Assembly (NCBI GenBank): GCA_049472355.1 | Contig: JBLIRP010000002.1 | Span: 1,118 to 65,117, forward strand | DNA from: a bacterium | GTDB lineage: Bacteria; SZUA-182; DTGQ01; JAFGSM01 | DNA: 64,000 bases | Reading direction: 5' to 3' | Shown here: positions 45,362 through 62,871 of the stretch, one piece after another | How the letters are laid out: each line of letters opens with the position of its first letter | Numbering within the stretch: position 1 is the first letter of the stretch | Notes under the pieces: model-generated | What the model was told of the DNA's origin: nothing | The model's input: the letters and a program-made list of their open reading frames with translations, nothing else | The model's database searches: none | Program-made: the position numbers and the translations under genes

Positions 45362-45378
45362 AGAATCGCTTTCCCTGC

Positions 45379-46827
<1,449 letters not shown>

Positions 46828-47781: not shown

Positions 47782-47795
47782 AATTGATACCCGCT

Positions 47796-49607
47796 TTAGA
47801 CAAATTGCTTTTTGAACTCAGCAATGATTTCCCTTAAGCCTGAATTGATCTCCGGGGTCAAATCCTTCTTTTCCTGAATCATGTCCATGATATTCTGATA
47901 ATTCTGATGAGCAAAAGCCACCAACCCCTTCTCGAACTCCCCGACCCGTTTTACAGGAATATCATCCATCAGGCTGTTGACCACCGCGTAAAGCACCAAG
48001 GCCTCCTCTGCCAACGGCATAGGCGCATACTGAATCTGTTTTAATAATTCACGCCCCCTTTCCCCTCTGGCAAGCTGGGCCTTTGTGGCCTCATCCACCT
48101 CTGCACCAAATTTTACAAAGGCCTGCATCTCATGATATTGAGCAAGGTCTATTCTCAACCTTCCGGCGATCTTTTTGATGATCTTGGTTTGCGCTGCACC
48201 ACCGACCCTAGATACCGACAAACCGACATTAATGGCCGGCCGAAAGCCCGTATTAAACAAACCGGATTCGAGATATATCTGGCCATCCGTAATCGATATT
48301 ACATTGGTCGAGATATATGAGGTGACATCCCCGCCCAGTGTCTCGATGATCGGTATGGCGGTCAACGACCCCCCGCCTTTTTCCTTACTCAGTTTGGCGG
48401 CCCTTTCCAACAATCTTGAATGCACATAAAAAATATCACCCGGATAGGCCTCCCTGCCGATAGGTCTCTTCAAGAGAGCCGACATCTCCCTGTAAGCCAC
48501 CGCATGTTTGGAAAGATCGTCGAAAATAACCAACGCATCCCCGCCCTGCTCCATGAACTCCTCACCGATGGCGCAGGCAGTATAAGGCGCCAGGTATTTA
48601 AAGGCGGTCTGCTCATTGGCTAGCGCAGCGACAATAATCGTATGGTCCAATGCCCCCTCTCTTCGCAAGACCTCCACGACCTTGGCCACGGCTGCGGCCT
48701 TCTGACCGATGGCCGCATAGACACATATCAGATTGTTGCCCTTCTGATTTATTATGGTATCTATGGCCAGGGTGGTCTTTCCGATCTTCCTGTCGCCGAT
48801 AATCAATTCCCTCTGGCCGCGCCCTATGGGGATCATTGCGTCTATCGCCTTTATCCCGGTCTGTACCGGTTCCTTTACAGGCTGGCGCGTCACCACACGG
48901 GGAGCGATCCTTTCCACTAATCGATAGCTCGTGGTGAGGATCTTGCCTTTACCATCGATGGGCTGACCGACAGCGTTCACTATCCTGCCGATCATTCCCT
49001 TCCCAACAGGAATCTCCAACTGATGGCCGGTACAAACAACCTTGGTTCCTTCCTTAATATCTTCTTCAGCTCCTAGTAAAATACAACCTACTGCATCCTG
49101 CTCCAAACTAAAGGCCAAACCGTAAACGCTTCCGGCAAATTCAACCACTTCCATAGAACCCACGTTCTCAAGGCCCGCGACCCTGGCGATTCCGTCGCCG
49201 ACCTGGAGGACAATCCCCTCCTGGCGCATGTCCTCAATCTTAAAGGTCGGTTTCGTGGCTTCTATAATCCGCCGTAGTTCCTTGGTAATGTCCTCTGTTT
49301 TCAATTGTTGGACATCGCCCTTCAATTCCATAAACTTTCTGTCTAATTCACTTACAAAACTCTGCTTGACATCAAGACTGATCTTCTTGTTTCTGTCAAG
49401 AAACAGCATTGGGCTTTCCTGTTTAGCGTCCGTAAATACCTTGATCTGTATTTTCTTTCCCGCAATCTTGGAAAGCTCTTGCTCCAAATTCTCCACAAAA
49501 TCGGATCTATAAACAGTCGGGCTCAACAAAACCAAAGGTTGACTGGCGTTATTTAAAGCCTCCTTTAAACCTTCCTGTTTAGCTTCCATCTGTTTAACAT
49601 TCTCCAT
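47796..49607 (-). CDS. atpA: F-type ATP synthase alpha subunit with a ~92-aa delta(OSCP)-C-terminal-like N-terminal extension
   Basis: 603 aa. The alpha core starts near Met93 ([14 protein letters not shown]...[13 protein letters not shown]), P-loop GDRKIGKT. Residues 1-92 resemble a delta C-terminal domain. RBS AAGGA precedes the first ATG. Confidence 0.88.
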
Positions 49608-49973
49608 AATCCTTAGCCTTCCATCATAAGTTTCTTATTATTCAGCAGCCATATTCGACATCCCTCAGCTATTCCCCATATTCCCACTCTAAAATGATAA
49701 TGACTCTCCTCTACAAACGCCACATACTGGATTCATACGAATCAATTCTCGTAAAAATCCTCAAGGCCGATTTCATCTGTACCCGATGAAAAATAGCTGC
49801 AGAATAATTATGACAAACTCCATATTGATTAAATCGTACGATATTTACTGCAAAACATAAATTGGCTTTAAGGTATAACCCTGATAGATCCAATAACGGT
49901 TATTTTGAATCCGGCTCTTGTTATAGGCTACAACTCTGTATTCCTCTATTCCATCATAGGCTACAGCCGAAAC

Positions 49974-50002
49974 ACAAAAAACCCCCAGGAGCGGCACCCT
50001 GA
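49974..50002 (-). terminator. weak hairpin plus T6 right after the atpE stop (possible attenuator)
   Basis: The minus strand reads TGATCAGGGTGCCGCTCCTGGGGGTTTTTTGTG. Short CAGG/CCTG stem, then G4T6. Confidence 0.35.
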
Positions 50003-50443
50003 TCAAATGATCAGAATCAATGCGACAACCAGGCAATAAAGACATAATGCCTCAATGATGGCCATACCGATCAACATGGTCATAAAAAGCTTTCCCTGGA
50101 TCTCGGGCTGTCTTGACATACCTTCCAATGAGGCCATTCCGAACTTGGCAATCCCCAGGGAGGCGCCGAATGCACCCCAACCGAGCAATATGGCTGCAGC
50201 TACTGCCTTTAAAGCCTCAACCCAGGCGACTTCGCCACCCTTTGTTGTTACGATAGCTGCGGATTCTTCCGCCCATAATGCCAAGGGAGATGACAAAGCC
50301 AGTAGAATCGTATTGACAAATACAAAATAAATGGTTTTTTTGGACCGTATAACCCTTATAACCCTGTTCTTTGTGGAATTGTATAATGATGCAATAGACA
50401 TTGAGACCCTCCTTTTAATGATTAAAATAATGGAATGTTGCAT
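50003..50443 (-). CDS. atpE: F-type ATP synthase c subunit with signal-peptide-like N-terminal extension
   Basis: The C-terminal ~75 aa form a c-subunit hairpin (GASLGIAKFGMASLEGMSRQPE...MAIIEALCLYCLVVALILI). It is preceded by KKTIYFVFVNTILLALSSPLALWA|EE. The true start (50443, 50401 or later) is uncertain. Confidence 0.85.
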   Translation of the reverse strand: MQHSIILIIKRRVSMSIASLYNSTKNRVIRVIRSKKTIYFVFVNTILLALSSPLALWAEESAAIVTTKGGEVAWVEALKAVAAAILLGWGAFGASLGIAKFGMASLEGMSRQPEIQGKLFMTMLIGMAIIEALCLYCLVVALILII

Positions 50444-50466
50444 TGGTTATAAAAGGTTAACCTTGC

Positions 50467-50946
50467 TTAGGATGCCTGCCGTAGACTGTCCAATATGACC
50501 TTCTCTACAAGTTCCTTATGACCGTCCTTCTTCGCCAGATCCGGAAGCGCCCTGTAAGCGGCTGAACTGACCAGATCGATCAATTTCAGATTCGTCTCCT
50601 GGAGCAGTTCCTCCCTCTCCCTGGCGATTTCAGCACGGGCGTTTTCTATGATCTTGTCGGCCTCTTCCTTGGCCTTTGCGATGATATCATTTTTCATCTT
50701 TTCCGTTTGGTTCAAAATCTTCTGTGCATCTACCCTGCTTTGAGCAAGAATCTCATCCCGATCCCTCAATGCCTTCTCTTGTTCCTCTTTGGCGATTGCA
50801 CGTTGCCGTAACCCCTCCTCGATCTTTTCCTTTCTTGCATCCAATATCTCCATTATGGGTTTGAAGAAGAATTTTTTCATAAGAAAAAGAAGGATAAAGA
50901 AATTGACAACTAAAAATATTGTTTTTGTAAAGTCAAAGCCTATCAT
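50467..50946 (-). CDS. atpF: F-type ATP synthase b subunit
   Basis: 159 aa. One N-terminal TM (IFLVVNFFILLFLMKKFFFKPI), then a long charged coiled coil (ILDARKEKIEEGL...). Confidence 0.85.
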   Translation of the reverse strand: MIGFDFTKTIFLVVNFFILLFLMKKFFFKPIMEILDARKEKIEEGLRQRAIAKEEQEKALRDRDEILAQSRVDAQKILNQTEKMKNDIIAKAKEEADKIIENARAEIAREREELLQETNLKLIDLVSSAAYRALPDLAKKDGHKELVEKVILDSLRQAS

Positions 50947-51012
50947 CAGTTCACCCCGAGTAAAAAGTTTTTTTAACGGAAACTATTTTGTAAACAATAT
51001 TGCCTTTATCTA

Positions 51013-52293
51013 TTAATGTACGCCTAATTCTTCCTTGAAATAAAACAGACTCAGCATAACAAAGACCAAGGTCTGTATAATCGCGAAAAGGACATCCATG
51101 CAGAAGATCATAAATGGAATAAACAAGGGAACTACAAAATAATATCTCTTGATTGCAACGTCAGTAACCATCGAAAGCACACTATGCTCGCCAAATATAT
51201 TACCAAAAAGTCGCAGTGAAAGTGAAAGAAGTCTTGCTCCATTATCAACAAGATGCAGCGCAATGAGGAACAAAACAATTATTTTTACAGGAGCCTGTTT
51301 TAAGATCCCGAAGGCTATGTTTAATAATTTTGATATAGGCATCCAAACAGCGGATAAAATCTTTTTATGAAAAGTTAAAGCCCTATTCAAATACCGTAAA
51401 ATAAAGAAAACAATCAAAATAAGTGAATACATACTGACGATATTAACGATTACGGTATGCTTGAAGGGTATAAAAAGAATGAACATGATGCCGATACACA
51501 TAAGCAATGTGCCAATGCCGTAAAAAATCGAATATTTGACGAATGAAGCGTCCTCCCCGTCTTCCAATCCCGAGATCCTCAGGAAAAAGCCGACCATGGA
51601 CTCCGCAAGACACTGAATTCCCCCTGGAACATCATCTCTCTGTAGCCTTGATCGTATCCAAAAACCGAATGCCAGCAATAAAACGGTCGCCGCCACACAA
51701 TAGACAGCCATCAGTTGAAATGGCAAGGATAATAATACGGCAATATTATCGATCAAATAGAGAATCAAGAATGGAATCACGAAGAGCTTCCACATGAAGG
51801 AACCTTTTTTGGACTGCGTCCTTGAGCCTTGCCCCTCATGCCTAAAAACCTCTTCCTCATCCGAGGCCTCTTTTTTCCCAAGCCCTGGGATTGGGTCCAG
51901 CCATAATTTGGCCGCCTTTTTGGGTCCATTTAATTTTATATTGTAATACTGTAAGCCGATGACAACGATCAAGGCCAATGCAAAGGTGTTGCTCCAATCA
52001 CTGGTTGGCGGATGTGCATGAGGAATTATGAGAAAAAAATTGGAGATTAAGATAAATAGAACAAAGGTACCCAGAAACGGAAGTAAGTGAGCCAGCTTTT
52101 CCTGCCCCAGCTCCGTCCTTATAATGTTGTCCAGGGATTCTACCAGAACCTCGGCAATATTTTGAACTGAGCCGGGCGCGCCATCCTTTTGCCTGTTTTT
52201 GATCGCTAAATACGAAAAGATGAGAAGAATTGCCGATGTAATTGAACAATAGATTATTTCATAGATCCACGTTAAACCAAAATGAACATGCAT
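51013..52293 (-). CDS. atpB: F-type ATP synthase a subunit, enlarged (426 aa) by an apparent partial internal duplication
   Basis: The C-terminal half has LLSLSLRLFGNIFGEH (essential Arg) and AIIQTLVFVMLSLFY. The N-terminal half repeats the PG.Q..AE... module and has LLSLPFQLMAVY at the equivalent helix. Confidence 0.85.
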   Translation of the reverse strand: MHVHFGLTWIYEIIYCSITSAILLIFSYLAIKNRQKDGAPGSVQNIAEVLVESLDNIIRTELGQEKLAHLLPFLGTFVLFILISNFFLIIPHAHPPTSDWSNTFALALIVVIGLQYYNIKLNGPKKAAKLWLDPIPGLGKKEASDEEEVFRHEGQGSRTQSKKGSFMWKLFVIPFLILYLIDNIAVLLSLPFQLMAVYCVAATVLLLAFGFWIRSRLQRDDVPGGIQCLAESMVGFFLRISGLEDGEDASFVKYSIFYGIGTLLMCIGIMFILFIPFKHTVIVNIVSMYSLILIVFFILRYLNRALTFHKKILSAVWMPISKLLNIAFGILKQAPVKIIVLFLIALHLVDNGARLLSLSLRLFGNIFGEHSVLSMVTDVAIKRYYFVVPLFIPFMIFCMDVLFAIIQTLVFVMLSLFYFKEELGVH

Positions 52294-52404
52294 TGCTTAC
52301 TTCTATACCCTTTCTTTTATGCCGCTTGCGAGCCTTGTATGCGATTTTTGGTAAACGATTTTTATTCATATCGCCTTGAAATTCTCTCTTAAAAAACGAT
52401 TGTA

Positions 52405-52433
52405 ATGATATCAATAATACCGTTTTTTGTCAA
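52405..52433 (-). promoter_or_regulatory. sigma70 promoter of the ATP synthase operon
   Basis: The minus strand reads TTGACA (52433-52428), 17-nt spacer, TATCAT (52410-52405), about 110 nt upstream of the atpB ATG. Confidence 0.6.
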
Positions 52434-52555
52434 CACCCAAATGAACCAATTCCAAAACATAATCACGTCATTCCTTTTCCCCTCATCGCATACATTTGAG
52501 GAGGATTGATCATTCCATAGGATTTCAATACCTATTTTTATATAATATTAAATTC

Positions 52556-53094
52556 CAACTGCCCGGCGTCCTCACAGCGATTTGTACCGTCACCGGTGCC
52601 AAGGCATCATCCCTATCAGCGGCCCCTTCCCCTCACGCAGGGGGCTTTCTGACAGGTCGCAGCATGCGACTATCATCCCGGATTCCTTTGCATGAGCGAT
52701 CCCTGCACGGCCTCTCCCCATGAATATCCGTTTCGTGCAGGTCCTCACGTTGTCAAGCCCTGCACTCCGTTCTCATACGTCCATCACCTCTTACGATCAT
52801 TTACCAATCGACCATTACGAACCAGCGCCTTTTCCCGCACACCAGCTCAACCGCTTTCCTCTGGTGCGCAGGTCTTATGCGTAAAACATTCTTATGTAAG
52901 AATTCGTACGCCTCTTCCGGAAACCTTGGATTCGCCGATCGTATACGATATTTTGCATCCGCACAGATCCCCGTCGCTGGACTACTTCGAATTTGCCCTT
53001 TTGGCCTGATATCCGACCTGTCCAAAAAAATGACGCCTAAAGGAACGGTCGGGACCATCCATACCTTCAGGGACGGGAAATCTGAACCACGCAC
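52556..53094 (-). ncRNA. group II intron-like structured RNA, 5' part only (domains I-III); no IEP ORF or domain V seen
   Basis: GC-rich island in AT-rich DNA with no credible ORF. The minus strand starts GUGCG (53094-53090). It contains GAGGAAAGCGGUUGAGC and GGUAAAUGAUCGUAAGAGGUGAUGGAC, which resemble Ll.LtrB domain I (UGGAAAGCGAUGAGU; GGUAAGUUAUGGUUGUGGAC) as I recall it. Confidence 0.5.
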
Positions 53095-53129
53095 CATTTT
53101 ATCCCCTTCGATATAATTTTTATTATTTT

Positions 53130-53157
53130 AAAAGGTAGCATGATTGCTACCTTTTTT
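53130..53157. terminator. orphan bidirectional intrinsic-terminator hairpin
   Basis: AAAAGGTAGCA-TGAT-TGCTACCTTTTTT. A 7-bp stem flanked by A4 and T6. No adjacent upstream CDS on either strand. Confidence 0.6.
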
Positions 53158-53615
53158 CAGACTCTAAAAAGCACGCCTGCGACTTGCACCCTGCAGTGAA
53201 AATTTCATATCATTGTAACCATATGTTTTTTAACGTATTTTTAGCTTTGTAGAGATTATTGTTATAGGCATGCATATTGCTCCCCATAAGTGCAGCACTA
53301 CAGAAATATCCTAATCCCATAATGGCCTTATCCACCAAATAAAGATGAAGGAGGGGGGAGAATATCGAATAGAAAAGTCGATGATCTCATAATTCAATCC
53401 ATCAATTATATATCACTATTCTACGGTTTTCTTACGGCCCTTTCATGCCGAGCCTCAGCACACGCGAAGACGTTGTATTAGGGCTCATTGAATTCGTAGT
53501 TTTTATCCTTTGAATTTGTCGATCCTGTTATCATCGGCCGGAAAATAGTGTTCCAAATAGAGGGAATCAAAAGTCACTATTAAAACCTTACTATATTTAA
53601 ACAGAGGTCACGCAA

Positions 53616-54074
53616 ATGTACAGAGATAAAGATTCAACCAATAAGGCTATATTCTATACCAGGGCTGTTAACAGCCCGAAGGATACGTGGTCGATCGATA
53701 CCCAGATCAAAAGGGCGCAATCGTACGCGAAATCCACGGGTTTAAATCTGCAGGAAATATTCGTCGATGAGACGCAGGTCCCCATATACTATATAATAAA
53801 GGATAGGGCCTCCGTATCATCTCAAAAATCCTTCCAGCCCAAGAGGCTTCTTATGCCCGATTTAGTTCCGGTTTATCAAGAGGCTATGACACAACTCATT
53901 GAAATGACAGCTTTTCAGAGGATGCTCGCGTACATTCGTTCGAATCCGGTCAATGTACTTCTGATTTCAAAGCTTGAGATCTTGTTCGCAAACATGAAGG
54001 ATGCATTCAGCTTCGTTGACAATGAGCTAAATCCCCGGCGAATCGCCCTTAAGACCCTTGGTGAGATTAATTGA
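53616..54074 (+). CDS. serine-recombinase (resolvase) catalytic-domain-like protein, probably inactive, no HTH
   Basis: AIFYTRAVNSPKDTWSIDTQI...IFVDE...VLLISKLEILFANMKDA aligns by eye with YARVSTSQQSLDIQ...IFTDK...ILVKKLDRLGRD. The Ser10, Arg68 and Arg71 equivalents are not conserved. Confidence 0.55.
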   Translation: MYRDKDSTNKAIFYTRAVNSPKDTWSIDTQIKRAQSYAKSTGLNLQEIFVDETQVPIYYIIKDRASVSSQKSFQPKRLLMPDLVPVYQEAMTQLIEMTAFQRMLAYIRSNPVNVLLISKLEILFANMKDAFSFVDNELNPRRIALKTLGEIN

Positions 54075-54224: not shown

Positions 54225-54623
54225 ATGCAAATGACGAAGAATACGAGTAAAACCAAGGGAATTGTTGTCTGCAATACAACATTATGCTTAAATTGTGGTA
54301 ATTGTATTGTTGCATGCAAAAGGAGGCATAAAAATATTTCACGTCATAGAAGAGAGGGCGCGACTTTAATCGGCATAAGTTTATTTCCTGATTTATGCAG
54401 TCTATGTCAAGATGCCAAATGCATAGAAGCCTGCAATCGCAACGGGCTGGAAAGAGATGAGAATGGGTATATCATTGTTACGGACAAATGCGTAGGATGC
54501 GGTTCCTGCGCCAGGGCTTGCCCTTATAACGCCATACTGCTTTTTTCCGAGCCAGAGGGAATAGGTTCTTTTTTGGGAGACTTTGTTTCTTATATCAAAA
54601 GCTTTGTGAAAAAAAATGGATGA
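54225..54623 (+). CDS. CooF/HybA-like multi-[4Fe-4S] ferredoxin
   Basis: CLNCGNCIVAC, CSLCQDAKCIEAC, CVGCGSCARACP cysteine clusters. 132 aa. Confidence 0.85.
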   Translation: MQMTKNTSKTKGIVVCNTTLCLNCGNCIVACKRRHKNISRHRREGATLIGISLFPDLCSLCQDAKCIEACNRNGLERDENGYIIVTDKCVGCGSCARACPYNAILLFSEPEGIGSFLGDFVSYIKSFVKKNG

Positions 54624-54629
54624 GATACT

Positions 54630-55772
54630 ATGACGGAAGCCAAAATAATGCAAAAAGTGATAGTCATTTGTGATTTATCAAATTGCTTAAATTGTGGTAA
54701 CTGTATTATTGCCTGTGAACGCAGGCATAAAGATATTTCACGACATTCCCGGGTCTTTTCTACAATTATCGGGATCAGTCTATTGCCGAGTCTATGTATG
54801 GTATGTAACGATCCTAAATGCATAGAAGCTTGTAATCATGATGGAATGACAAGAGATGAACATGGTCACATCGTTGTTACGGATAATTGTATTGGTTGCG
54901 GCTTGTGTATGAGAGTTTGTCCGTATAACGCGATACTATTATTCTCAGGGGAAATCAGAAGAAGTTCATTTATGGATAAGCTCATTGATTTAATACGCCC
55001 AAACGGAAATAACATTGAGGATAATAATGGGAAAAAATCCAAGGCCATTGATTTGGAATCCGTAGAAGACATTATTGACCGACATGGAAATGGAGCTGGC
55101 TCTTTGCTGAACATCCTCAATGATATTCAAGACCATTATGGTTATTTATCCCAGGAGGTATTGAGATATGTTTCAAGAACACGTGAAATACCTCTGACAC
55201 AGATTTTCCATGTCGTTACGTTTAATCGAGGATTCAATCTCATTCAAAATCAGCGATGGGAAACCGAGGGATCAAATGGAACAACCTGGCATATAGGCGG
55301 CGCCCAAAAGATAACAGAGATGTCAAATTTCGACAACGATGGTTTTCACCTGAGGATAAATGACAAGAAATGTGTATCGTGCGGTCTCTGCGTAAAGGCA
55401 TGTGAAGAAGTAAGCGGAGCTTGTGCATTACGTTTCTCCAGACAGGTTATTTACGGAGAGGTTAAGAAGCCGTTTTTGGAATTCCCTGAGGCCTGTACCG
55501 GCTGCGGTGAGTGCGCCAAGGTATGTCCTACAAAGGCAATCACCATTGACTATGAAGTTGAAAAAATGCGATCCAAGCAGAAGGTAGTAAAATGTGACGG
55601 CTGCGCTGGATACGATGACAGGGCTTGTGTCGTTAACTGTCCAACTGGGGCACTAAAGGCAATACCGTTGGATGAATATCTTTCTCAACATAAGATATCC
55701 TACAATATAGAATTAAGAGATATGCTTAAGCAGTCACTCAAGGAAAAAGGCGAGGCTATTTCTCCTTTATAA
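54630..55772 (+). CDS. multidomain Fe-S protein: CooF-like N-terminus + NuoE-like helical segment + polyferredoxin C-terminus
   Basis: CLNCGNCIIAC, CMVCNDPKCIEAC, CIGCGLCMRVCP. LLNILNDIQDHYGYLSQEVLRYVS...HVVTF (NuoE-like, no 2Fe-2S cysteines seen). CVSCGLCVKAC, CTGCGECAKVCP, KCDGCAGYDDRACVVNCPTGAL. Confidence 0.82.
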   Translation: MTEAKIMQKVIVICDLSNCLNCGNCIIACERRHKDISRHSRVFSTIIGISLLPSLCMVCNDPKCIEACNHDGMTRDEHGHIVVTDNCIGCGLCMRVCPYNAILLFSGEIRRSSFMDKLIDLIRPNGNNIEDNNGKKSKAIDLESVEDIIDRHGNGAGSLLNILNDIQDHYGYLSQEVLRYVSRTREIPLTQIFHVVTFNRGFNLIQNQRWETEGSNGTTWHIGGAQKITEMSNFDNDGFHLRINDKKCVSCGLCVKACEEVSGACALRFSRQVIYGEVKKPFLEFPEACTGCGECAKVCPTKAITIDYEVEKMRSKQKVVKCDGCAGYDDRACVVNCPTGALKAIPLDEYLSQHKISYNIELRDMLKQSLKEKGEAISPL

Positions 55773-56125: not shown

Positions 56126-57331
56126 ATGGACAAATTAATCGTTATCCTCTTATTTGAGGATGATCCTACTCATGCCGGCTTGATAAGAAAGGTATTGCAT
56201 TCCTATAACAGATCAATCGTTGTAGAGCAGGCATCGACTGCAGATGAATTTTACGACTTATTAAAAAAGGAACCAAAATACGATTTAATCATATGTGACT
56301 ATGATCTTCCAAGGAATATAGGGTTGAAGATGTTGAAGAGAACAAGAAGAGAGTTCATGTTTAAAAGGCCTATAATCGCACTGGTCGGTATGCGGTATAA
56401 GAAATTTGCAGAAGAATTGATTGCATTCGGGGCTACACGCTATCTCATTAAGACAGAAAATTTTCATAATTCTCTTCCATTGATTGTCGAGGATTGTCTA
56501 AGGGCAGGTCCTGAAATAATGGAACATGTTATTAAGAGGCATGACCAGGATTCGTTGATACGATTCAAGATTGATGGACAGGAAGTTGAGGGAGTCAAAG
56601 GGGAAACCATACTGGAAGTGGCCCGCAGGTATAGTATCAAAATACCAACCCTTTGCTATCATCCTTCAGTGAGCACGTATGGGGGGTGCCGGCTTTGCGT
56701 CGTTGAGGTGATCAAAAACAAAGGGAAACGACTGGAACCATCATGTGTATTCCCAATATCGGACGGAATCGAGGTCAAGACGGCAAGTGAAAAGGTGCTT
56801 AATACGCGAAGGTTGGTTTTGGAGCTTTTGCTGGCTCAATGTCCGAATGCAGAGATTTTAAGGAAAATTGGAGAGGTTCTTGGTTTGCAGAGTTCCCGCT
56901 TCCCTTTGAATACAGATGGTAATAAATGTATTTTATGTGGCTTATGTGTCCGAGTATGCCGGGAGGTCGTCGGATTGGGGGCTATAGGCTTTTCTCAGAG
57001 ATATCTTCATCGCGAGATAACCCCACCGTTCTGGGAGCTGTCCGAAGCCTGTTCCGGATGTGGGGAGTGCGCCAAGATATGTCCAACCGGTGCAATCACC
57101 TTGGAATACATTGATGAGAAAATACGAAAAAAACGCGGTGCTGTAGCGGTTAAGTGTGACGGATGTGCGGGGTATGGTAACAAGGCTTGTGTGATCAACT
57201 GTCCAACGGGGGCTCTGGATGTTGTTCCGTTAGAGGAGTATGTTTCCAAACACAAGATATCTTTTAATGCAGAACTCGAAGAGCTTATGGAGAATTCAAC
57301 CGAACAGGAACCTGAGGGAAAATATGAATAA
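56126..57331 (+). CDS. response-regulator receiver domain fused to NuoG/HydA-like [2Fe-2S] + [4Fe-4S] modules
   Basis: REC: LLFEDDP, LIICDYDLP, YLIK. 2Fe-2S: IRFKIDGQEV...PTLCYHPSVSTYGGCRLCVVEV...PSC. 4Fe-4S: CILCGLCVRVC, CSGCGECAKICP, KCDGCAGYGNKACVINCPTGAL. Confidence 0.85.
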   Translation: MDKLIVILLFEDDPTHAGLIRKVLHSYNRSIVVEQASTADEFYDLLKKEPKYDLIICDYDLPRNIGLKMLKRTRREFMFKRPIIALVGMRYKKFAEELIAFGATRYLIKTENFHNSLPLIVEDCLRAGPEIMEHVIKRHDQDSLIRFKIDGQEVEGVKGETILEVARRYSIKIPTLCYHPSVSTYGGCRLCVVEVIKNKGKRLEPSCVFPISDGIEVKTASEKVLNTRRLVLELLLAQCPNAEILRKIGEVLGLQSSRFPLNTDGNKCILCGLCVRVCREVVGLGAIGFSQRYLHREITPPFWELSEACSGCGECAKICPTGAITLEYIDEKIRKKRGAVAVKCDGCAGYGNKACVINCPTGALDVVPLEEYVSKHKISFNAELEELMENSTEQEPEGKYE

Positions 57332-58220
57332 GAATGCCGAGAATCAGCATACAGTCTTTCGTGTGTTTTGGGTTTTGCTAGTCATTATTATTACCTTTTA
57401 TTTATACCTGCGATACAAGGCATATTTCGCCACGCCAAGCCATTTGAGACATTTTAATCCGGTCACACTTGAGCCTAATCAGCTTCATCAAGTACTCAAG
57501 CCGTCAGGGAGTTTGGGACATGGTCTCGGTATTGCGGGGTCGATCTTAATGATTTTATGTGTGATTTTATATATTTTGAGAAAAAAAATTGAAAAGCTGG
57601 AGTCCCTGGGACCGCTTTCCTTATGGTTGGAAATACACATCTTTCTCGGCATACTGGGGCCTGTTTTGATCTTCTTTCATTCTGCTCTGAAATTTGGCGG
57701 TTTAATAGGTATTGGATTCTGGTTAATGGTAATTGCCGTCATTTCAGGGGTTCTGGGAAGAACATGTTTTGGAAAGTATTTTGGGCGTTTAACCAGGAGA
57801 TATGAGCTGTTACATAAAATCGACGTCTTTCTCGAAAGGGATTTGAAAGAGGCAAGTCAGAATTCTTCCATCATTAAAAGGACCATGGAGTTGAAATCAT
57901 CAAACTTCCCAAGCAATCTAGGCATAATAGCCGCTTTGAAGGAATGGGCATATATAAAGAAGGAAAAAAATAATCTGATGGTCTTAATAGAAAAGAAATA
58001 TGGTAATAAAGGATCAGAAGAGCATGAGACACTTAAAAAATGGGCTACCGAAGTTATTAGTAGGTTGGATGAAATAAGTGCTGTTTCTGCCTTAAACCTT
58101 CATTTATCCATAATAAATAAATGGCTCTTGATCCACGAAGTATGTAGTTATTTATTGTTTATTTTCCTTTTTATCCATGTTTTTGTAACTGCATATTGGG
58201 GATATACGTGGTTATTATAG
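57324..58220 (+). CDS. polytopic membrane protein with two H-x13-H helices (candidate di-haem b-type electron conduit)
   Basis: The start ATG overlaps the upstream stop (ATGAATAA). WLEIHIFLGILGPVLIFFHS and LLIHEVCSYLLFIFLFIHV each place two His exactly 13 residues apart within TM helices. A soluble insert of about 115 aa precedes the last TM. Confidence 0.75.
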   Translation: MNKNAENQHTVFRVFWVLLVIIITFYLYLRYKAYFATPSHLRHFNPVTLEPNQLHQVLKPSGSLGHGLGIAGSILMILCVILYILRKKIEKLESLGPLSLWLEIHIFLGILGPVLIFFHSALKFGGLIGIGFWLMVIAVISGVLGRTCFGKYFGRLTRRYELLHKIDVFLERDLKEASQNSSIIKRTMELKSSNFPSNLGIIAALKEWAYIKKEKNNLMVLIEKKYGNKGSEEHETLKKWATEVISRLDEISAVSALNLHLSIINKWLLIHEVCSYLLFIFLFIHVFVTAYWGYTWLL

Positions 58221-58331: not shown

Positions 58332-58853
58332 ATGAAAAAATATTCTTTATCCCTGCTATTATTACTCATAGTTGTTTTTTTTCTCCTTTATGCCTGTTTT
58401 CACGTAAAATGGTCAGAGATGCTTTCCCCCGGAGACCTTTCCTTGGCACATGCGGATATGGATTTGTCAGAGGACTGCCAGGCGTGCCATACGAAGGGTA
58501 AACAGATCGATAACGGAAAATGTCTGGACTGCCATGCGGAGATACAAGACAAAATGGATTTAAATCAGGGTCTCCATAGCCAGGCGTCAAGTGAATGTTT
58601 AGATTGTCATTCAGAGCATCATGGAAAGGAAACCAACATTGCTTATTTCGATGAAGATAACTTTGATCATGCCAAGACAGGGTGGTCACTGGAAGGAAGG
58701 CACACGTTGTTGAAATGTGAAGCCTGCCATATGAAAGACTCCTTCTTGCTTGACAAGGCAGATTGCATTCATTGTCATAAGGATTTTCACGAAGGCGAGT
58801 ATGGCACTGATTGTGCTGAATGCCACGATCAGGATTCATTCAGAATGGAATAG
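58332..58853 (+). CDS. hexahaem cytochrome c (paired-CxxCH / c3-c7-like), signal peptide or lipoprotein anchor
   Basis: Six CxxCH motifs: CQACH, CLDCH, CLDCH, CEACH, CIHCH, CAECH. N-terminal hydrophobic leader with a possible lipobox LYAC. Confidence 0.88.
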   Translation: MKKYSLSLLLLLIVVFFLLYACFHVKWSEMLSPGDLSLAHADMDLSEDCQACHTKGKQIDNGKCLDCHAEIQDKMDLNQGLHSQASSECLDCHSEHHGKETNIAYFDEDNFDHAKTGWSLEGRHTLLKCEACHMKDSFLLDKADCIHCHKDFHEGEYGTDCAECHDQDSFRME

Positions 58854-59639: not shown

Positions 59640-61355
59640 TTATTCAGCCAATATCCGCGAAATTCTTCGATTGATGTAGTTGACCTTTTTCTTTAATCTA
59701 TATTTTGTATGGATTCTGGATTCAAGCGTTCTCGCGGACTTTGTTATGACACGCACCCTGCGTGCCAAGCCTTTTGGTATCTCTTTGAATAAATTTAACA
59801 TGCAAAGCAAAAGACAAAACAGCCACGGTTTATTTAATTTAGTCGCTATGTAACTCGCGCCCTTCTCCCTTCTTTTAAGAGCCAAGTCCAATGTTCTCCC
59901 CGCTAAACTGGAGGTAAACCATTCATCCGCATTGATCATTTTCAATAATGTCTGAAAGGCGGCTATCTCTTCTTTTATCCGCTTCTTGATTTCCTCCGGT
60001 GGCTCGTTTGTTGGTTCTTGGGTAAGTAATATTTGCAGGTACTTGATAAGAAATCGGACCCTTTGCATGACTTCGTATTTTTCTCTGTTTGATAGTTCTC
60101 CTTCCAGTTTTTCGGCCAAATTTAGACGAAGTTCCTCTATCAAATCCAGCTCGTAGGCACTTGAAAACTTGAATCTTTCTCCAAACAGGGAAGGGATCCC
60201 AACAAAAATATCGGCAACCTCCTGCAATCGGTATATTTGGAGCAACTTATTGAAATTCTCCCAACACGGGAGCATGTTTGGTGTTTCTTTCGGAACGTTC
60301 GCATTGTTCCAAACCGTACTGCATGGATATAGTTTTAAGAATTGATCTATATCCACATGGTCGACATCGAGATTATATTCCTGGGTTACCCTTGGGAAGC
60401 AGGACTTGGTCAGATTCAAGAATTCCTCCCAGTTCGGGTATTTGTTCAGAAAACGGTCCAGCACGACTCCGGCTATAAGGATCATATGAAATTTAATTGT
60501 ACCGAGCTCCATTTTGATATCTGCATGAATATCACCAAGGCCGTCGGTAATCATAATGATCTCGGCCTGTCTCATATCGGGATCGTTTTTTATGTCTTTG
60601 ATGGCCGTTAGTATAGCCTCATTTATTTTTGTTTCATAACACTCGACCGTATGCAGGTTAATCAGATATCTTATGAGTTCCTTTATTTGTCCGGATTTCG
60701 TAATCTGCTGCAACTGGCCCATCTCCTGATTAAAAAAACGAAAGTATATCTGAGGGCTCTCCTTCCGGACTCTTCGAAGATATTCAATACAGATTGCCTT
60801 GGCAGCATAGAGCTTGTTCAGTTGGTCACCTTCCATGGAGCATGAATTATCAAATAGGATATAGACCTTTTGTCTCTTGTTTAATTCCTTGTCCTTTCCA
60901 TAAACCAGATCAGAAACAGATAAGCCTTCGGGATCGATGAATTTTTTCCTGTATAACTCATGATTGATGAGTTTTTTGTAAAAAAGATCCTCTGTATTGA
61001 TCAAAAATTCTCTGGGCAGGATATGCAATATTTGGCTTGTTGAAGTCACTTTTCCAATATCGACATTATCAGCCAATTCTGAATCTATAATCATATCATT
61101 TCTATCGATTTCCTCCTTCACTTTGTTGTCTTCGAAGATCCTATTTCTCTCGAGAATGGGCGCCATTCTCCCCTTGATTGGATACGCGGTATCCATTGAA
61201 AAAAGGCACCGTGCAATAAAAAATATCTTTATCCATTCCTTTGGTAGACCATCACTAACATTCCGGATATCATCCGGAAAACAATCCGGTATGTTCAAAA
61301 TATCTAAATAACACTCCGGCTCTATAAAGAACCAATGGTTAAGGAATTCATTCAT
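59640..61355 (-). CDS. von Willebrand factor A (vWA) domain protein, partner of the upstream AAA+ ATPase
   Basis: 571 aa. Central MIDAS: VYILFDNSCSM (DxSxS), ...ETK..., IIMITDGLGD. Long helical N- and C-terminal regions of unknown family. Confidence 0.82.
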   Translation of the reverse strand: MNEFLNHWFFIEPECYLDILNIPDCFPDDIRNVSDGLPKEWIKIFFIARCLFSMDTAYPIKGRMAPILERNRIFEDNKVKEEIDRNDMIIDSELADNVDIGKVTSTSQILHILPREFLINTEDLFYKKLINHELYRKKFIDPEGLSVSDLVYGKDKELNKRQKVYILFDNSCSMEGDQLNKLYAAKAICIEYLRRVRKESPQIYFRFFNQEMGQLQQITKSGQIKELIRYLINLHTVECYETKINEAILTAIKDIKNDPDMRQAEIIMITDGLGDIHADIKMELGTIKFHMILIAGVVLDRFLNKYPNWEEFLNLTKSCFPRVTQEYNLDVDHVDIDQFLKLYPCSTVWNNANVPKETPNMLPCWENFNKLLQIYRLQEVADIFVGIPSLFGERFKFSSAYELDLIEELRLNLAEKLEGELSNREKYEVMQRVRFLIKYLQILLTQEPTNEPPEEIKKRIKEEIAAFQTLLKMINADEWFTSSLAGRTLDLALKRREKGASYIATKLNKPWLFCLLLCMLNLFKEIPKGLARRVRVITKSARTLESRIHTKYRLKKKVNYINRRISRILAE

Positions 61356-61374
61356 GGATCAAAGGCCTCAGTTT

Positions 61375-62871
61375 TTATTTGGACTGCCTAAAATGAACAT
61401 CATTGAATCTTTTGACATCGTGTTCAAACCCCTCGATCAGTTCCAATGTCTCCTTCTTTATAGCCATCTCTTTGAGCAAAGAACAGCTTTCTTCGAAAAT
61501 CTCAAGCAAATGAATTAATCTTGATTTGCTCGGTCGGAACCCGATCTTATTTACAAAAGTCATCAATCTGTTTTTAATACTTGCCTCTACAAAGGAACGT
61601 TCAATTTCGTCTATGATCAACCCGAAATTCTGATGTTCTACCAATGCACCCGGATCCTTGGCGGATTTTATTGTTCGAAAAATACTCATAATATTAAATA
61701 ATCGATTTAGAAGCTGCTTATCGTCGAAAAAATATTTCTTCGTTGCATCAATGATCCCCTTTAAACGCCTTTTTTCTTCTTCCTTTCCCACGATACAGAT
61801 CAAATAATACAGGTTATTGAGGTCTCTTTCCTCCACTACTGCACGTCCGTCAAGAATTGCAGATGCCCTCAGCAGATTCTGTGTCTTTGCCGCCGTTCTG
61901 TCGCTGATCATGAAATTATAGCCGCCCTCAATCCTCTTTGACTCTTCCGTATATTTACGAATTATATAATTCTTCAGGAAAAGGATATACTCCGGAATCT
62001 TTATGGACTGTGTTTTGATCAACAGTTTAATATGATTAAGTCTTTCCAAATCCAGTGTAACATCTGATTGTCTTATTTTACCTACATTTTTTCTATAAAC
62101 CTGGTCTATTGACAATTTGTAGTATAGGTTTTTGTTTTCCATGATATAGCACTTGTATAAAAACCGATCCAGGACAGCCTCCAGCATTTCGGTCGCTCGA
62201 ATATAATTTGAAGCGGCAATAACAGTATTGAGAGGAGAATCAACTATCTGTTCACCATTTACCAGTCTTTTCTCATTCAGCAGGGTAAGAAGGGACCTCA
62301 ACAACATATCGTTAGCATCAAAGATTTCATCAAGAAAAGCAAAATCAGAGGCAACAATCGAACCCTTAATATTGTGTATCAACTTCCCTCTTTTGAGATC
62401 ATCCATGTTATAGGCACCAAACATATTATCCGGCATCGTATCTTTGGTAAGTTGCTTCTGAAATAATTTTATATCTTCGAAGGATGAAAAGATTTGTCGT
62501 GCGAGAAGGCTTTTCGCCATTCCAGTTCTTCCCAAAATTAACTGGTGCTCACCGGTCAAAATGGCATAAAAACTCTGGCGAACGATCTCTTCTCTATCCA
62601 CTATGTTTTCGCAAACGAAATTGATAATATGGTTTATCTCTCCGGTTGTTTCAAACGCAATTTGGTAGTCCGGATGGTCTATTTCGAGTATCTTATTCAA
62701 GTCCAAATCAAGACCTGTTTTTACCTTCTCCTGCTCAAGGCCCGTCATGTCATTGACTGAAGGATACTTTTGAAGCCTATCCTCCTCTTCATTCGCTTCC
62801 GTTTCTTCCGCACGGCCAATGTCTTTATAAAGATAATCTGAATCTATGCTCATAGTCTTTTCCTTTCCCAA
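61375..62871 (-). CDS. MoxR-family AAA+ ATPase, RavA-like
   Basis: LILGRTGMAKSLLARQI (compare RavA GPPGIAKS), Walker B FAFLDEIF, LLTLLNEKRLVNG...VIAASNY...LEAVLDRF. About 100-aa N-terminal and 180-aa C-terminal extensions. Confidence 0.82.
   Translation of the reverse strand: MGKEKTMSIDSDYLYKDIGRAEETEANEEEDRLQKYPSVNDMTGLEQEKVKTGLDLDLNKILEIDHPDYQIAFETTGEINHIINFVCENIVDREEIVRQSFYAILTGEHQLILGRTGMAKSLLARQIFSSFEDIKLFQKQLTKDTMPDNMFGAYNMDDLKRGKLIHNIKGSIVASDFAFLDEIFDANDMLLRSLLTLLNEKRLVNGEQIVDSPLNTVIAASNYIRATEMLEAVLDRFLYKCYIMENKNLYYKLSIDQVYRKNVGKIRQSDVTLDLERLNHIKLLIKTQSIKIPEYILFLKNYIIRKYTEESKRIEGGYNFMISDRTAAKTQNLLRASAILDGRAVVEERDLNNLYYLICIVGKEEEKRRLKGIIDATKKYFFDDKQLLNRLFNIMSIFRTIKSAKDPGALVEHQNFGLIIDEIERSFVEASIKNRLMTFVNKIGFRPSKSRLIHLLEIFEESCSLLKEMAIKKETLELIEGFEHDVKRFNDVHFRQSK

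What the first reader, a model, noticed from the sequence alone, without database searches (positions are those of the whole stretch)
56126..57331. Receiver (REC) domain fused directly to a NuoG/HydA-type Fe-S cluster array
Seen: residues about 1-120 have the CheY-like pattern (EDD acidic pair, ICDYDLP with the phospho-acceptor Asp, YLIK Lys). At the usual Thr/Ser position the sequence reads ALVG by my alignment. The output is not a DNA-binding or enzymatic domain. It is a 2Fe-2S ferredoxin fold plus three Cys clusters. No histidine kinase is in the window. Inference: phosphorylation, or a phosphorylation-independent pseudo-receiver, may gate electron flow into the membrane partner encoded by the overlapping downstream gene. 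That would be post-translational control of a redox wire by two-component signalling.
Basis: partly seen in the sequence, partly recalled or inferred. Interest (0 to 1): 0.65.

Follow-up and report, generated by a model that had tools for sequence, protein, structure and literature searches.

The report
Receiver domain on an Fe-S electron-wire subunit
An uncultured sediment bacterium fuses a two-component "receiver" domain, probably one that no longer relies on phosphorylation, to the iron-sulfur subunit that feeds a membrane cytochrome b and a six-haem cytochrome c, a combination confined to one small bacterial lineage and not described before.

Summary
ORF 56126-57331 (401 aa) has a receiver (REC) domain scoring 51.8 bits against a Pfam cut-off of 30.2. 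A roughly 20-residue linker joins it to a NuoG/HoxU/BfuA-type Fe-S module with one [2Fe-2S] motif and three four-Cys motifs.

It is not a one-off. About 27 protein clusters share the architecture, and 12 of 13 genomes of the window's order carry the gene. It is always followed by a 5-TM protein with two invariant H-x13-H pairs (a di-haem cytochrome b signature) and a six-haem cytochrome c. Relatives add HydB/HydC-type (Bfu) NADH-flavoprotein genes.

The window copy sits in a 28-kb low-GC island that lacks the flavoprotein gene. A complete second copy lies elsewhere in the same genome.

- **Phospho-acceptor Asp:** present here (D58), but in only 8 of 27 family members; the rest have N, S, T or E, with at least 8 changes on the tree.
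- **Thr/Ser switch residue:** absent in all 27.
- **Acidic pocket and Lys:** invariant.
- **Selection:** the REC domain is under strong purifying selection.

The best reading is a phosphorylation-independent (pseudo-)receiver acting as a regulatory or assembly module. True phospho-gating remains possible for Asp-bearing members. This is a new variant of known kinds and is of moderate to high interest.

The parts
54225..54623 (+). 132-aa HydN-like 2x[4Fe-4S] ferredoxin. It is a paralogue (58% identity) of the N-terminus of the next gene.
   Evidence: Pfam Fer4_7, Fer4 and Fer4_11. tblastn paralogy. Conserved in island-clade relatives L012 and L014.
54630..55772 (+). 380-aa chimeric Fe-S protein. 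It combines a HydN-like Fer4 domain, a NuoE/BfuC-like domain that has lost its [2Fe-2S] cysteines, and a C-terminal half paralogous (50% identity) to the Fe-S half of the REC protein.
   Evidence: 49% identity to the relatives' BfuC over residues 7-230. 50% identity to REC-BfuA residues 246-398. Cys ligands replaced in all three island-clade members; dN/dS 0.03-0.20.
56126..56500 (+). Receiver (REC) domain, residues 1-125. Key residues: E11/D12/D13, D58 (codon GAC at 56297-56299), V87 at the Thr/Ser position (56384-56386), K109 (56450-56452).
   Evidence: PF00072 at 51.8 bits. Alignments to solved receivers. AF2 pLDDT 76-89 with a (beta-alpha)5 fold. Family residue counts. dN/dS 0.08-0.12.
56501..56554 (+). 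Variable linker, residues 126-143.
   Evidence: pLDDT 36 in the AF2 model. Poorly conserved in alignment A1.
56555..57331 (+). BfuA/HoxU/NuoG-N-terminal-type Fe-S module, residues 144-401. It holds a [2Fe-2S] site (C177, C188, C191, C207), three 4-Cys motifs (268-278, 309-319, 344-359) and a conserved C-terminal helix. The His-ligated cluster of NuoG/HydA is deleted.
   Evidence: Pfam Fer2_4, Fer4_21, Fer4_7 and Fer4_Nqo3. Partial HoxU, NuoG and FeFe-A6 matches. 9mqx_A WorA at E 4.6e-39, and HydA. Foldseek top hits are BfuA-type chains. All Cys invariant in A1.
57324..58220 (+). 298-aa membrane protein with five hydrophobic segments. It has invariant His pairs H105/H119 and H271/H285 (each H-x13-H) and a cytoplasmic insert of about 110 aa. 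It is a putative di-haem cytochrome b.
   Evidence: Alignment A2. Hydropathy and His positions. All 7 members give weak hits to DUF4405 and Ni_hydr_CYTB, and 4 to Ferric_reduct. Always adjacent to REC-BfuA.
58332..58853 (+). 173-aa hexahaem c-type cytochrome with an N-terminal signal or anchor helix.
   Evidence: Six CXXCH motifs here and in homologues. Pfam Cytochrome_C7 at 34.2 bits and Cytochrom_CIII at 29.1 bits.

Best explanation
The gene encodes the cytoplasmic Fe-S 'wire' subunit of a lineage-specific transmembrane electron-transfer module. This subunit is a type-2 BfuA/HoxU-like protein.

**Proposed electron path (inferred).** Electrons pass through its [2Fe-2S] and [4Fe-4S] clusters to a 5-TM di-haem cytochrome b. 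From there they reach a periplasmic hexahaem cytochrome c, or travel the reverse way.

**The two versions of the module.** In most members of the order, including a second copy in this same genome, the wire is fed by HydB/HydC-type (BfuB/BfuC) NADH-flavoprotein subunits. The window's copy lies on an acquired low-GC island. It has lost the flavoprotein and carries extra polyferredoxins instead, so its electron donor is probably a ferredoxin-type carrier, or a flavoprotein supplied in trans.

**The N-terminal REC domain.** It is a real, selectively maintained receiver fold. Its conserved role does not depend on aspartyl phosphorylation. It keeps the acidic pocket (E11, D12, D13, D60), H16 and K109-T110-E111 invariant. 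It tolerates D, N, S, T or E at the acceptor position and never has the Thr/Ser switch residue.

Most likely it works as a pseudo-receiver: a docking, oligomerisation or ligand/metal-responsive module that positions or tunes the Fe-S subunit in the complex.

**Shown versus inferred.** Shown: domain identity, residue pattern, gene linkage, selection and distribution. Inferred: haem binding, direction of electron flow and what the REC domain actually does.
For: **Domain and fold**
- The REC HMM scores above its cut-off, with Fe-S domains downstream.
- The residue register against solved receivers is canonical.
- The REC fold is predicted with confidence.

**Family residue pattern (27 members)**
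- Acceptor position: D 8, N 13, S 4, T 1, E 1.
- Thr/Ser position: 0 of 27.
- K109, E11, D13, P14 and H16: 27 of 27. D60: 24 D plus 3 E.
- At least 8 acceptor-state changes on the tree; the window's Asp is derived within an all-Asn clade.

**Selection and distribution**
- dN/dS of the REC domain is 0.08-0.12, similar to the Fe-S domains.
- The cassette BfuC, BfuB, REC-BfuA, cytochrome b, cytochrome c is found in 12 or more genomes, and the last three genes are always contiguous.
- 12 of 13 genomes of the order carry it; 0 of 7 from the other families of the class do.

**Closest relatives of the components**
- The relatives' flavoprotein matches bifurcating HydB over its full length, E 1e-254 to 1e-213.
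- The best solved relative of the Fe-S part is WorA, and Foldseek's top hits are BfuA-type chains.
- The membrane partner has four invariant transmembrane His as 2 x H-x13-H, plus consistent weak hits to di-haem b families.

**Kinases**
- Histidine kinase genes sit near cassettes whose REC carries N or E (L001, L004, L016). Kinase proximity therefore does not track the acceptor Asp.

**Island and second copy**
- The island and the native second copy are shown.
- The island arrangement is conserved at about 79% identity and is under purifying selection.
Against: - The window's own protein does have the acceptor Asp, both acidic residues and the Lys. Phosphorylation of this particular copy, and of the native paralogue, which also has Asp, cannot be excluded.
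- An invariant acidic pocket is unusual for pseudo-receivers, which often lose it. It could mean that Mg2+-dependent chemistry is retained.
- No structure or model of the complex shows where the REC domain sits. The full-length model has pTM 0.42 and the membrane-protein model has pLDDT 52.
- Haem b binding rests on a His pattern and sub-threshold Pfam hits only.
- One natural REC-less relative (L121) still pairs BfuA with the cytochrome b. REC is therefore not needed for that contact, although that locus also lacks the cytochrome c gene.
Confidence: 0.6

Rival explanations
1. This is a genuine two-component switch. In Asp-bearing members, including the window protein, an orphan histidine kinase or a small phospho-donor phosphorylates D58. 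The resulting conformational or dimerisation change gates electron flow from the Fe-S subunit into the cytochrome b/c conduit.
For: - D58, E11/D12/D13 and K109 are all present and in canonical register.
- The genome has 54 HATPase_c loci, most of them kinase-sized.
- Kinase and response-regulator genes lie beside the cassette in several relatives.
- The native paralogue also keeps the Asp.
Against: - The acceptor is N, S, T or E in 19 of 27 members and flips repeatedly.
- The Thr/Ser switch residue is missing in all members, and the aromatic switch residue is Cys in 20 of 27.
- Neighbouring kinases also occur next to N- and E-type copies.
- There is no kinase on the 99-kb contig or in the island.
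Confidence: 0.17
2. The conserved acidic pocket (E11, D12, D13, D60, E111, with H16 and K109) is a sensor site for a divalent metal or small ligand, for example Mg2+, Fe2+ or Mn2+. It would couple the complex's activity or assembly to metal availability, without phosphotransfer.
For: - The pocket residues are invariant while the acceptor itself is free to vary between D, N, S, T and E, all of which are possible metal or water ligands.
- A His (H16) that is unusual at this position in receivers is invariant.
- The organism lives in marine, estuarine and mangrove sediments, where a multihaem conduit could face metals.
Against: This rests purely on a conservation pattern. The same residues could form a protein-protein interface. 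No structural or biochemical evidence supports it.
Confidence: 0.13
3. The island copy is a non-functional or decaying duplicate of the native cassette. On this view its REC-Fe-S gene is a relic after loss of the NADH-binding subunit.
For: - BfuB is absent from the island.
- The BfuC-like domain has lost its [2Fe-2S] cysteines.
- There are internal duplications and a resolvase-like fragment.
Against: - The same arrangement is kept in at least two other organisms at about 79% protein identity.
- dN/dS is 0.03-0.2 for every segment.
- All Fe-S cysteines and haem motifs are intact.
- The sequence recurs in several independent sediment metagenomes.
Confidence: 0.05

Closest known systems
BfuA subunits of Bfu-family (HydABC-type) flavin-based electron-bifurcating enzymes, especially type-2 BfuA such as WorA of WorABCSL (PDB 9mqx_A; PMC12318220, PMC9304861)
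   Same: - The N-terminal [2Fe-2S] plus 2x[4Fe-4S] module is shared, and the His-ligated A3 cluster and the C-terminal A5/H-cluster domain are both absent.
- WorA is the best sequence hit (E 4.6e-39) and the best fold hit.
- In relatives and in the native paralogous locus, the gene is co-encoded with full-length HydB-type BfuB (E 1e-254) and BfuC.
- Both have a short C-terminal Cys motif plus helix that could plug into a partner.
   Different: - It has an N-terminal REC domain.
- Its partner is a membrane di-haem cytochrome b plus a multihaem cytochrome c, not a hydrogenase, FDH, WOR or Nuo module. The main text of the Bfu catalogue paper mentions neither cytochromes nor receivers.
- The window's island locus lacks the BfuBC core that defines the family.
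HoxU and the NuoG (Nqo3) N-terminal domain of NAD-reducing hydrogenase diaphorase and Complex I
   Same: Same [2Fe-2S] and ferredoxin-like cluster fold, with partial NCBIfam matches: HoxU 130 bits and NuoG 97.5 bits.
   Different: - The scores are far below the equivalog cut-offs (333 and 470).
- There is no molybdopterin-like C-terminal domain.
- There is no hydrogenase or Nuo membrane arm nearby.
- A REC domain has been added.
Aspartate-less / pseudo-receiver domains (ALR: RitR, FrzS, HP1043 and others; PMC4395418, PMC12632262)
   Same: The receiver fold is retained under selection. The phospho-acceptor is dispensable in 19 of 27 members, and the Thr/Ser switch residue is absent.
   Different: - The output is an electron-transfer Fe-S module, not a DNA-binding or protein-localisation domain.
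- The Mg2+-binding acidic pair and the Lys stay invariant.
- The family mixes Asp-bearing and Asp-less members, and the window protein itself has the Asp.
Cytoplasm-to-periplasm electron conduits built from cytochrome b plus multihaem c with Fe-S subunits (for example Hmc/Tmc complexes of sulfate reducers, CbcL-type proteins of Geobacter). This comparison is from my own knowledge and was not tested here.
   Same: The logic is the same: a cytoplasmic Fe-S protein, a transmembrane b-haem protein and a periplasmic multihaem cytochrome c encoded together.
   Different: - The membrane subunit has no above-threshold Pfam family and no solved relative.
- The Fe-S subunit is of BfuA type and carries a REC domain.
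- The link to HydB/HydC-type flavoproteins is not a feature of those systems.

Membership tests
Two-component response-regulator receiver domain (PF00072) | Match to the REC profile above the curated threshold, with a (beta-alpha)5 fold | tested here: met
   51.8 bits against a cut-off of 30.2, residues 7-112. The AF2 topology is E-H x5 with pLDDT 76-89.
Two-component response-regulator receiver domain (PF00072) | Acidic pair after beta-1 (CheY D12/D13) and conserved Lys (K109) | tested here: met
   E11/D12/D13 and K109 are present. In the family, E11, D13 and K109 are 27 of 27 and D12 is 25 of 27.
Two-component response-regulator receiver domain (PF00072) | Phospho-acceptor Asp at the end of beta-3 | tested here: inconclusive
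   It is present in the window protein (D58, codon GAC). In the family it is D in only 8 of 27 members and N, S, T or E in the rest, with at least 8 changes on the tree.
Two-component response-regulator receiver domain (PF00072) | Thr/Ser at the end of beta-4 and an aromatic switch residue on beta-5 | tested here: not met
   V87 occupies the Thr/Ser position here, and the position is V, L, I, M or F in all 27 members. Position 106 is Y here but Cys in 20 of 27.
Two-component response-regulator receiver domain (PF00072) | Phosphotransfer from a cognate histidine kinase | not testable with these tools
   No HATPase_c on contig C61, and 54 such loci elsewhere in the genome. No partner can be assigned.
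Aspartate-less / pseudo-receiver | Receiver fold lacking one or more residues needed for phosphotransfer or switching | tested here: met
   Thr/Ser is missing in all members and the Asp is missing in 19 of 27. The window protein lacks only Thr/Ser.
BfuA / HoxU / NuoG N-terminal Fe-S module | [2Fe-2S] four-Cys site followed by a ferredoxin-like 2x[4Fe-4S] motif pair | tested here: met
   All the cysteines are invariant in the family. Pfam Fer2_4, Fer4_21 and Fer4_Nqo3 match. 9mqx_A at E 4.6e-39.
BfuA / HoxU / NuoG N-terminal Fe-S module | Reaches the NCBIfam equivalog cut-off for HoxU or NuoG | tested here: not met
   HoxU scores 130.4 against a cut-off of 333. NuoG scores 97.5 against 470. FeFe-A6 scores 138.5 against 765.
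Bfu family of electron-bifurcating enzymes | Conserved BfuB (FMN/NADH, N-terminal [2Fe-2S], C-terminal 2x[4Fe-4S]) and BfuC core encoded with BfuA | tested here: not met
   The window locus has no BfuB, and its BfuC-like domain has lost its cluster cysteines. The feature is met in the native paralogous locus (C85) and in 12 or more relatives.
Di-haem transmembrane cytochrome b (Ni_hydr_CYTB / DUF4405 / Ferric_reduct superfamily), for the downstream partner | Two transmembrane helices, each with two His about 13 residues apart, plus a profile match | tested here: inconclusive
   H105/H119 and H271/H285 are invariant. Pfam hits are consistent but below threshold, E 0.001-0.26. There is no solved relative, and the AF2 model was too poor to use.
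Multihaem cytochrome c (c7/c3 type), for the third gene | Multiple CXXCH motifs, an export signal and a profile match | tested here: met
   Six CXXCH motifs and an N-terminal hydrophobic segment. Cytochrome_C7 scores 34.2 against a cut-off of 24.8.

The most novel reading that the evidence does not exclude
The REC domain is a post-translational gate on a respiratory electron wire. It would act by phosphorylation in Asp-bearing members such as this one, or by metal or ligand binding at the invariant acidic pocket in all members. In either case it would switch electron flow between a Bfu-type NADH/ferredoxin module and a transmembrane cytochrome b / hexahaem c conduit.

In the complete cassettes, this would be a previously unrecognised cytochrome-linked class of Bfu electron-bifurcating or confurcating enzyme, whose third substrate is a periplasmic or extracellular electron acceptor or donor.
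Probability: 0.2. Interest if true: 0.8.

Novelty: new variant of a known kind. Interest (0 to 1): 0.6.

Why it matters
Receiver domains normally control transcription, enzymes or motors. A receiver fold welded to an Fe-S electron-transfer subunit would be direct signalling-type control, or a structural re-use, inside an electron-transport chain.

The surrounding cassette also suggests a kind of Bfu (HydABC-type) enzyme that is not in the published catalogue of that family. This kind would be wired through a di-haem membrane protein to a periplasmic multihaem cytochrome, which would connect flavin-based bifurcation to respiration or extracellular electron transfer in anoxic sediments.

The mixture of Asp-bearing and Asp-less members within one orthologous family offers a natural experiment on how receivers turn into pseudo-receivers.

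The island copy, which has lost the flavoprotein yet remains under selection, shows that the wire can be re-plumbed to other donors.

Tried and rejected
1. **Scan of species-representative genomes with a REC+Fer2 alignment.** The patterns chosen came from the Fer2 part, and the scan was swamped by ordinary NuoG/HoxU genes from many phyla. No organism names were obtained for the family. The genome search gave the distribution instead, but without names, so the phylum remains unnamed. It has only 20 species-level genomes, and NCBI labels the relatives simply 'bacterium', with one 'Nitrospirae bacterium'.

2. **AlphaFold2 of the membrane protein from 7 sequences.** Mean pLDDT was 51.8, which is too poor for a fold search, so none was run. 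The full-length REC-BfuA model has pTM 0.42, so the domain packing was not interpreted.

3. **Regulatory and RNA scans.** A sigma-54-type promoter pattern, sigma-70 and terminator scans found nothing above chance upstream of the operon. Rfam and tRNA scans of 40-64 kb found nothing.

4. **Laying metagenome contigs over the left island border.** The pieces are too short to confirm or refute the junction. Loose ends at 41210 in two runs hint at an alternative junction in other strains. This is unresolved.

5. **Decaying-pseudogene reading of the locus.** Rejected, because the arrangement is conserved and dN/dS is low.

6. **P0028 as a REC-less family member.** Rejected. Its contig is a frameshift-ridden long-read assembly in which the REC domain is called as a separate ORF.

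7. **A WorA-like Zn finger for the third Cys motif (344-359).** Considered, but the alignment to MvhB polyferredoxin (CxxC-x5-C-x3-CP-TGAL) favours a [4Fe-4S] site. Not settled.

8. **Literature searches.** Searches for receiver or pseudo-receiver domains fused to Fe-S, NuoG or HoxU proteins, and for cytochrome-linked Bfu enzymes, found no description.
Full report
**1. The observation**

ORF 56126-57331 (+) encodes 401 aa. Pfam places a Response_reg domain on residues 7-112 at 51.8 bits (curated cut-off 30.2), a Fer2_4 [2Fe-2S] domain on 144-221, and several 4Fe-4S dicluster models on 262-367. NCBIfam gives only partial, sub-threshold matches to the N-termini of HoxU, NuoG and group-A6 [FeFe] hydrogenase, plus weak matches of the first 110 residues to response regulators.

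phmmer alignments to solved receivers (SLN1, CtrA and a CheY-like regulator) put the residues in canonical register:
- E11-D12-D13 falls on the acidic pair.
- D58 of 'IICDYDLP' falls on the phospho-acceptor.
- V87 of 'ALVG' falls on the Thr/Ser position.
- K109 falls on the conserved Lys.

AlphaFold2 with a 29-sequence alignment predicts a canonical (beta-alpha)5 fold for residues 1-127, with pLDDT 76-89. It also gives a disordered linker at 131-141, a well-predicted [2Fe-2S] domain, and a poorly predicted cluster-dependent C-terminal half.

The Cys positions give one [2Fe-2S] set (C177, C188, C191, C207) and three four-Cys motifs (268-278, 309-319, 344-359).

**2. It is a family, not an accident**

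A search of 5.8 billion proteins found about 27 clusters of roughly 400 aa, at 48-79% identity, with the same REC + Fer2_4 + Fer4 architecture. All come from metagenomes or MAGs (alignment A1).

An exhaustive HMMER search of 1.84 billion 50%-identity representatives used a REC + linker + Fer2 profile. Only one full-length representative, plus one fragment, matched across both the REC and Fer2 parts. This is therefore one narrow family.

Within the window's phylum only 20 species-level genomes are held. Of these, 12 of the 13 genomes of the same order carry the gene, and none of the 7 genomes of the other families in the class do.

**3. Gene context**

Across loci from public assemblies and from the order's genomes, the REC-Fe-S gene is always followed, co-oriented and usually overlapping, by two genes: a membrane protein of about 292 aa and a multihaem cytochrome c of about 174 aa.

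Two further genes lie either upstream or downstream:
- a NuoE-like protein of about 285 aa with an extra N-terminal HydN-type Fer4 domain;
- a NuoF-like protein of about 615 aa with an N-terminal thioredoxin-like [2Fe-2S] domain and a C-terminal 2x[4Fe-4S] domain.

The NuoF-like protein matches the HydB/BfuB subunits of structurally characterised electron-bifurcating enzymes over its whole length, with E 1e-254 to 1e-213. These include NiFe-HydABCSL, HydABC of A. woodii, T. kivui and T. maritima, WorB and NfnB. Complex I NuoF matches only the core, at E of about 1e-118 or weaker.

The best solved relative of the window protein's Fe-S part is WorA (9mqx_A, E 4.6e-39), the BfuA subunit of WorABCSL. 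HydA subunits of bifurcating hydrogenases, HoxU and NuoG follow, and Foldseek gives the same order.

As in WorA and other 'type 2' BfuA proteins (PMC9304861, PMC12318220), the His-ligated cluster is deleted (alignment to HydA) and there is no large C-terminal catalytic domain.

The published Bfu catalogue lists hydrogenase-, FDH-, WOR-, POR-, CODH-, Nfn-, Mbh- and Nuo-linked members. Its main text mentions neither cytochromes nor receiver domains.

**4. The membrane partner and the cytochrome**

The membrane protein starts at 57324, overlapping the REC gene's stop by 8 nt, and this start is supported by the homologue alignment. It has five hydrophobic segments: 11-29, 67-85, 100-120, 126-144 and 265-291. 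A charged insert of about 110 residues lies between the fourth and fifth segments.

H105/H119 and H271/H285 are invariant in all seven aligned homologues (50-89% identity). Each pair is spaced H-x13-H within a hydrophobic segment, which is the classic bis-His di-haem pattern.

All seven members give weak but consistent hits to DUF4405 and to prokaryotic cytochrome b561 (Ni_hydr_CYTB), and four hit Ferric_reduct. None reaches threshold, there is no solved sequence relative, and the AF2 model was too poor to use. 'Di-haem cytochrome b' is therefore a well-motivated inference, not a demonstration.

The third gene has six CXXCH motifs and an N-terminal hydrophobic signal or anchor, and it passes the Cytochrome_C7 threshold.

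**5. The window's copy is an island-borne variant**

The genome averages 54% GC. Contig positions of about 41-70 kb, which correspond to the window from about 42 kb to its end, drop to 38-47% GC and are flanked on both sides by 55-58% GC.

The island carries:
- an unusual F-type ATP synthase operon, covered in earlier notes;
- a resolvase-like ORF;
- the Fe-S / REC / cytochrome genes;
- a MoxR-vWA pair;
- beyond the window, a PAS-rich sigma-54 activator.

The island holds no BfuB gene. Instead there is a 132-aa HydN-like ferredoxin and a 380-aa chimera. The first 230 residues of the chimera are BfuC-like (49% identity), but the [2Fe-2S] cysteines are replaced. Its last 150 residues are a 50%-identical paralogue of the REC protein's own Fe-S half.

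The two closest relatives (79% identity; L012 and L014) have exactly the same arrangement, including the ATP synthase genes. dN/dS is 0.03-0.20 for every segment (dS is near saturation, so these values are approximate). This is therefore a stable derived variant and not decay.

The same genome also holds a complete native cassette, split across a contig break. C85 carries BfuB, BfuC and a REC-BfuA gene that is 51% identical. C84 carries the cytochrome b, the cytochrome c and then a REC-PAS protein. Same-genus genomes have only the native type.

The island sequence recurs almost identically in marine-sediment, estuary and mangrove metagenomes from several studies.

**6. Is the receiver a phospho-switch?**

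Counts across the 27 family members:

| Position (window residue) | Family state |
|---|---|
| E11, D13, P14, H16, K109 | 27 of 27 |
| D12 | 25 of 27 |
| D60 (acceptor + 2) | 24 D, 3 E |
| T110, E111 | 26 of 27 |
| Phospho-acceptor (D58) | D 8, N 13, S 4, T 1, E 1 |
| Thr/Ser position (V87) | V, L, I, M or F in all 27 |
| Aromatic switch (Y106) | Cys in 20 of 27 |

On a maximum-likelihood tree of 35 sequences, the acceptor state changes at least 8 times, and D versus non-D changes at least 4 times. The window protein and its sister (both D, codon GAC) are nested in a 12-member clade that is otherwise all Asn (AAT in L014). The window's Asp therefore looks like a one-base re-gain.

The REC domain is nonetheless under purifying selection as strong as that on the Fe-S domains, with dN/dS 0.08-0.12.

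Histidine kinase and sigma-54 regulator genes sit beside the cassette in several relatives, but beside copies whose REC has N or E (L001, L004, L016). They are more simply explained as transcriptional regulators. No HATPase_c gene lies on the window's 99-kb contig, while 54 lie elsewhere in the genome.

Taken together, the conserved function of this domain cannot be aspartyl phosphorylation with the canonical Thr/aromatic switch. The strict conservation of the loops around the 'active site', everything except the acceptor itself, points to that face being used either as a protein interface or as a metal or ligand site. Which of these applies could not be tested here.

One natural relative lacks REC. 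L121 has a 300-aa BfuA that keeps only a remnant aligning with helix 5 and the linker. It still sits next to BfuC, BfuB and a 47%-identical cytochrome b, but has no cytochrome c gene beside it. REC is therefore accessory to the BfuA-cytochrome b pairing. With a single case, the link to cytochrome c is only a lead. A second apparent REC-less member (P0028) is an artefact of a frameshifted long-read contig.

**7. Most likely mechanism**

*Shown:* a receiver-fold domain is covalently attached to a BfuA-type Fe-S protein, and this protein is genetically locked to a membrane protein with a di-haem signature and to a hexahaem cytochrome c.

*Inferred:* electrons move between cytoplasmic donors and the periplasmic cytochrome through the Fe-S chain and two b haems. 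The donors would be NADH and ferredoxin through BfuBC in the complete cassettes, and polyferredoxins or a flavoprotein supplied in trans in the island version. The REC domain acts without phosphorylation as a docking, oligomerisation or ligand-responsive module.

My confidence values are about 0.6 for this reading, 0.17 for a true phospho-switch in Asp-bearing members, 0.13 for a metal or ligand sensor and 0.05 for a relic.

**8. Comparison, novelty and verdict**

The protein works like a type-2 BfuA/HoxU wire and looks like a pseudo-receiver fusion. However:
- It fails the HoxU and NuoG equivalog thresholds.
- The window locus fails the defining BfuBC-core criterion of the Bfu family.
- The REC domain fails the Thr/Ser criterion of a canonical receiver.

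I found no description of a receiver or pseudo-receiver fused to an Fe-S electron-transfer subunit, nor of a cytochrome b/c-linked Bfu-type cassette. The literature library is incomplete, so this is absence of evidence only.

I rate it a new variant of known kinds, restricted to one order of a small uncultured phylum, with interest 0.6.

Noticed in passing
window 53616-54074 (+); L012 7214-7672; L016 7436-7999: A resolvase-like ORF of 152 aa scores 26 bits on PF00239. It has no evident catalytic Ser motif and no HTH. It is conserved directly upstream of the Fe-S/REC genes in two different clades (80% and 44% identity), so it may be a component of the locus and not an IS remnant.
   Followed up: partly
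window ~42100-64000 and on to contig C61 ~70 kb: A low-GC island of about 28 kb (38-47% GC) sits in a 54% GC genome, flanked on both sides by 55-58% GC. No tRNA or integrase was seen at the left border. Loose ends at 41210 in two metagenome runs suggest an alternative junction in other strains.
   Followed up: partly
genome contigs C85:49-4020 (-) and C84:6302-7653 (-): A second, complete copy of the cassette lies here (BfuB, BfuC, REC-BfuA, cytochrome b, cytochrome c), split by a contig break and followed by a REC-PAS protein. Its REC domain also has Asp at the acceptor position ('IIIDNDLP').
   Followed up: yes
window 54225-55772: There is a tandem partial duplication. The 132-aa ferredoxin repeats the N-terminus of the 380-aa gene. 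The C-terminal 150 residues of the 380-aa gene are a paralogue of the REC protein's Fe-S half, grafted onto a BfuC-like domain that has lost its cluster cysteines.
   Followed up: yes
window 44888-52293 (-): An F-type ATP synthase operon has an enlarged a subunit (426 aa, two ATP-synt_A stretches) and a 603-aa alpha subunit. It travels with the REC/cytochrome genes in L012, L014 and, in part, L016. Earlier notes of this scan already treat it.
   Followed up: no
window 52300-53600: An ORF-poor stretch of 1.3 kb lies between the ATP synthase a gene and the resolvase-like gene. No Rfam family or tRNA was detected.
   Followed up: partly
window 59640-62871 (-) and contig C61:65096-68926 (-): A bpMoxR-type AAA ATPase plus a vWA protein, and just past the window's end a 1276-aa sigma-54 activator with three PAS domains. 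All are conserved with the island in L012. The activator is a candidate transcriptional regulator of the island operons.
   Followed up: partly
L121 3896-5861 (GCA_043802115.1): A natural REC-less BfuA (300 aa) sits next to BfuC, BfuB and a 47%-identical cytochrome b, but no cytochrome c gene follows.
   Followed up: partly
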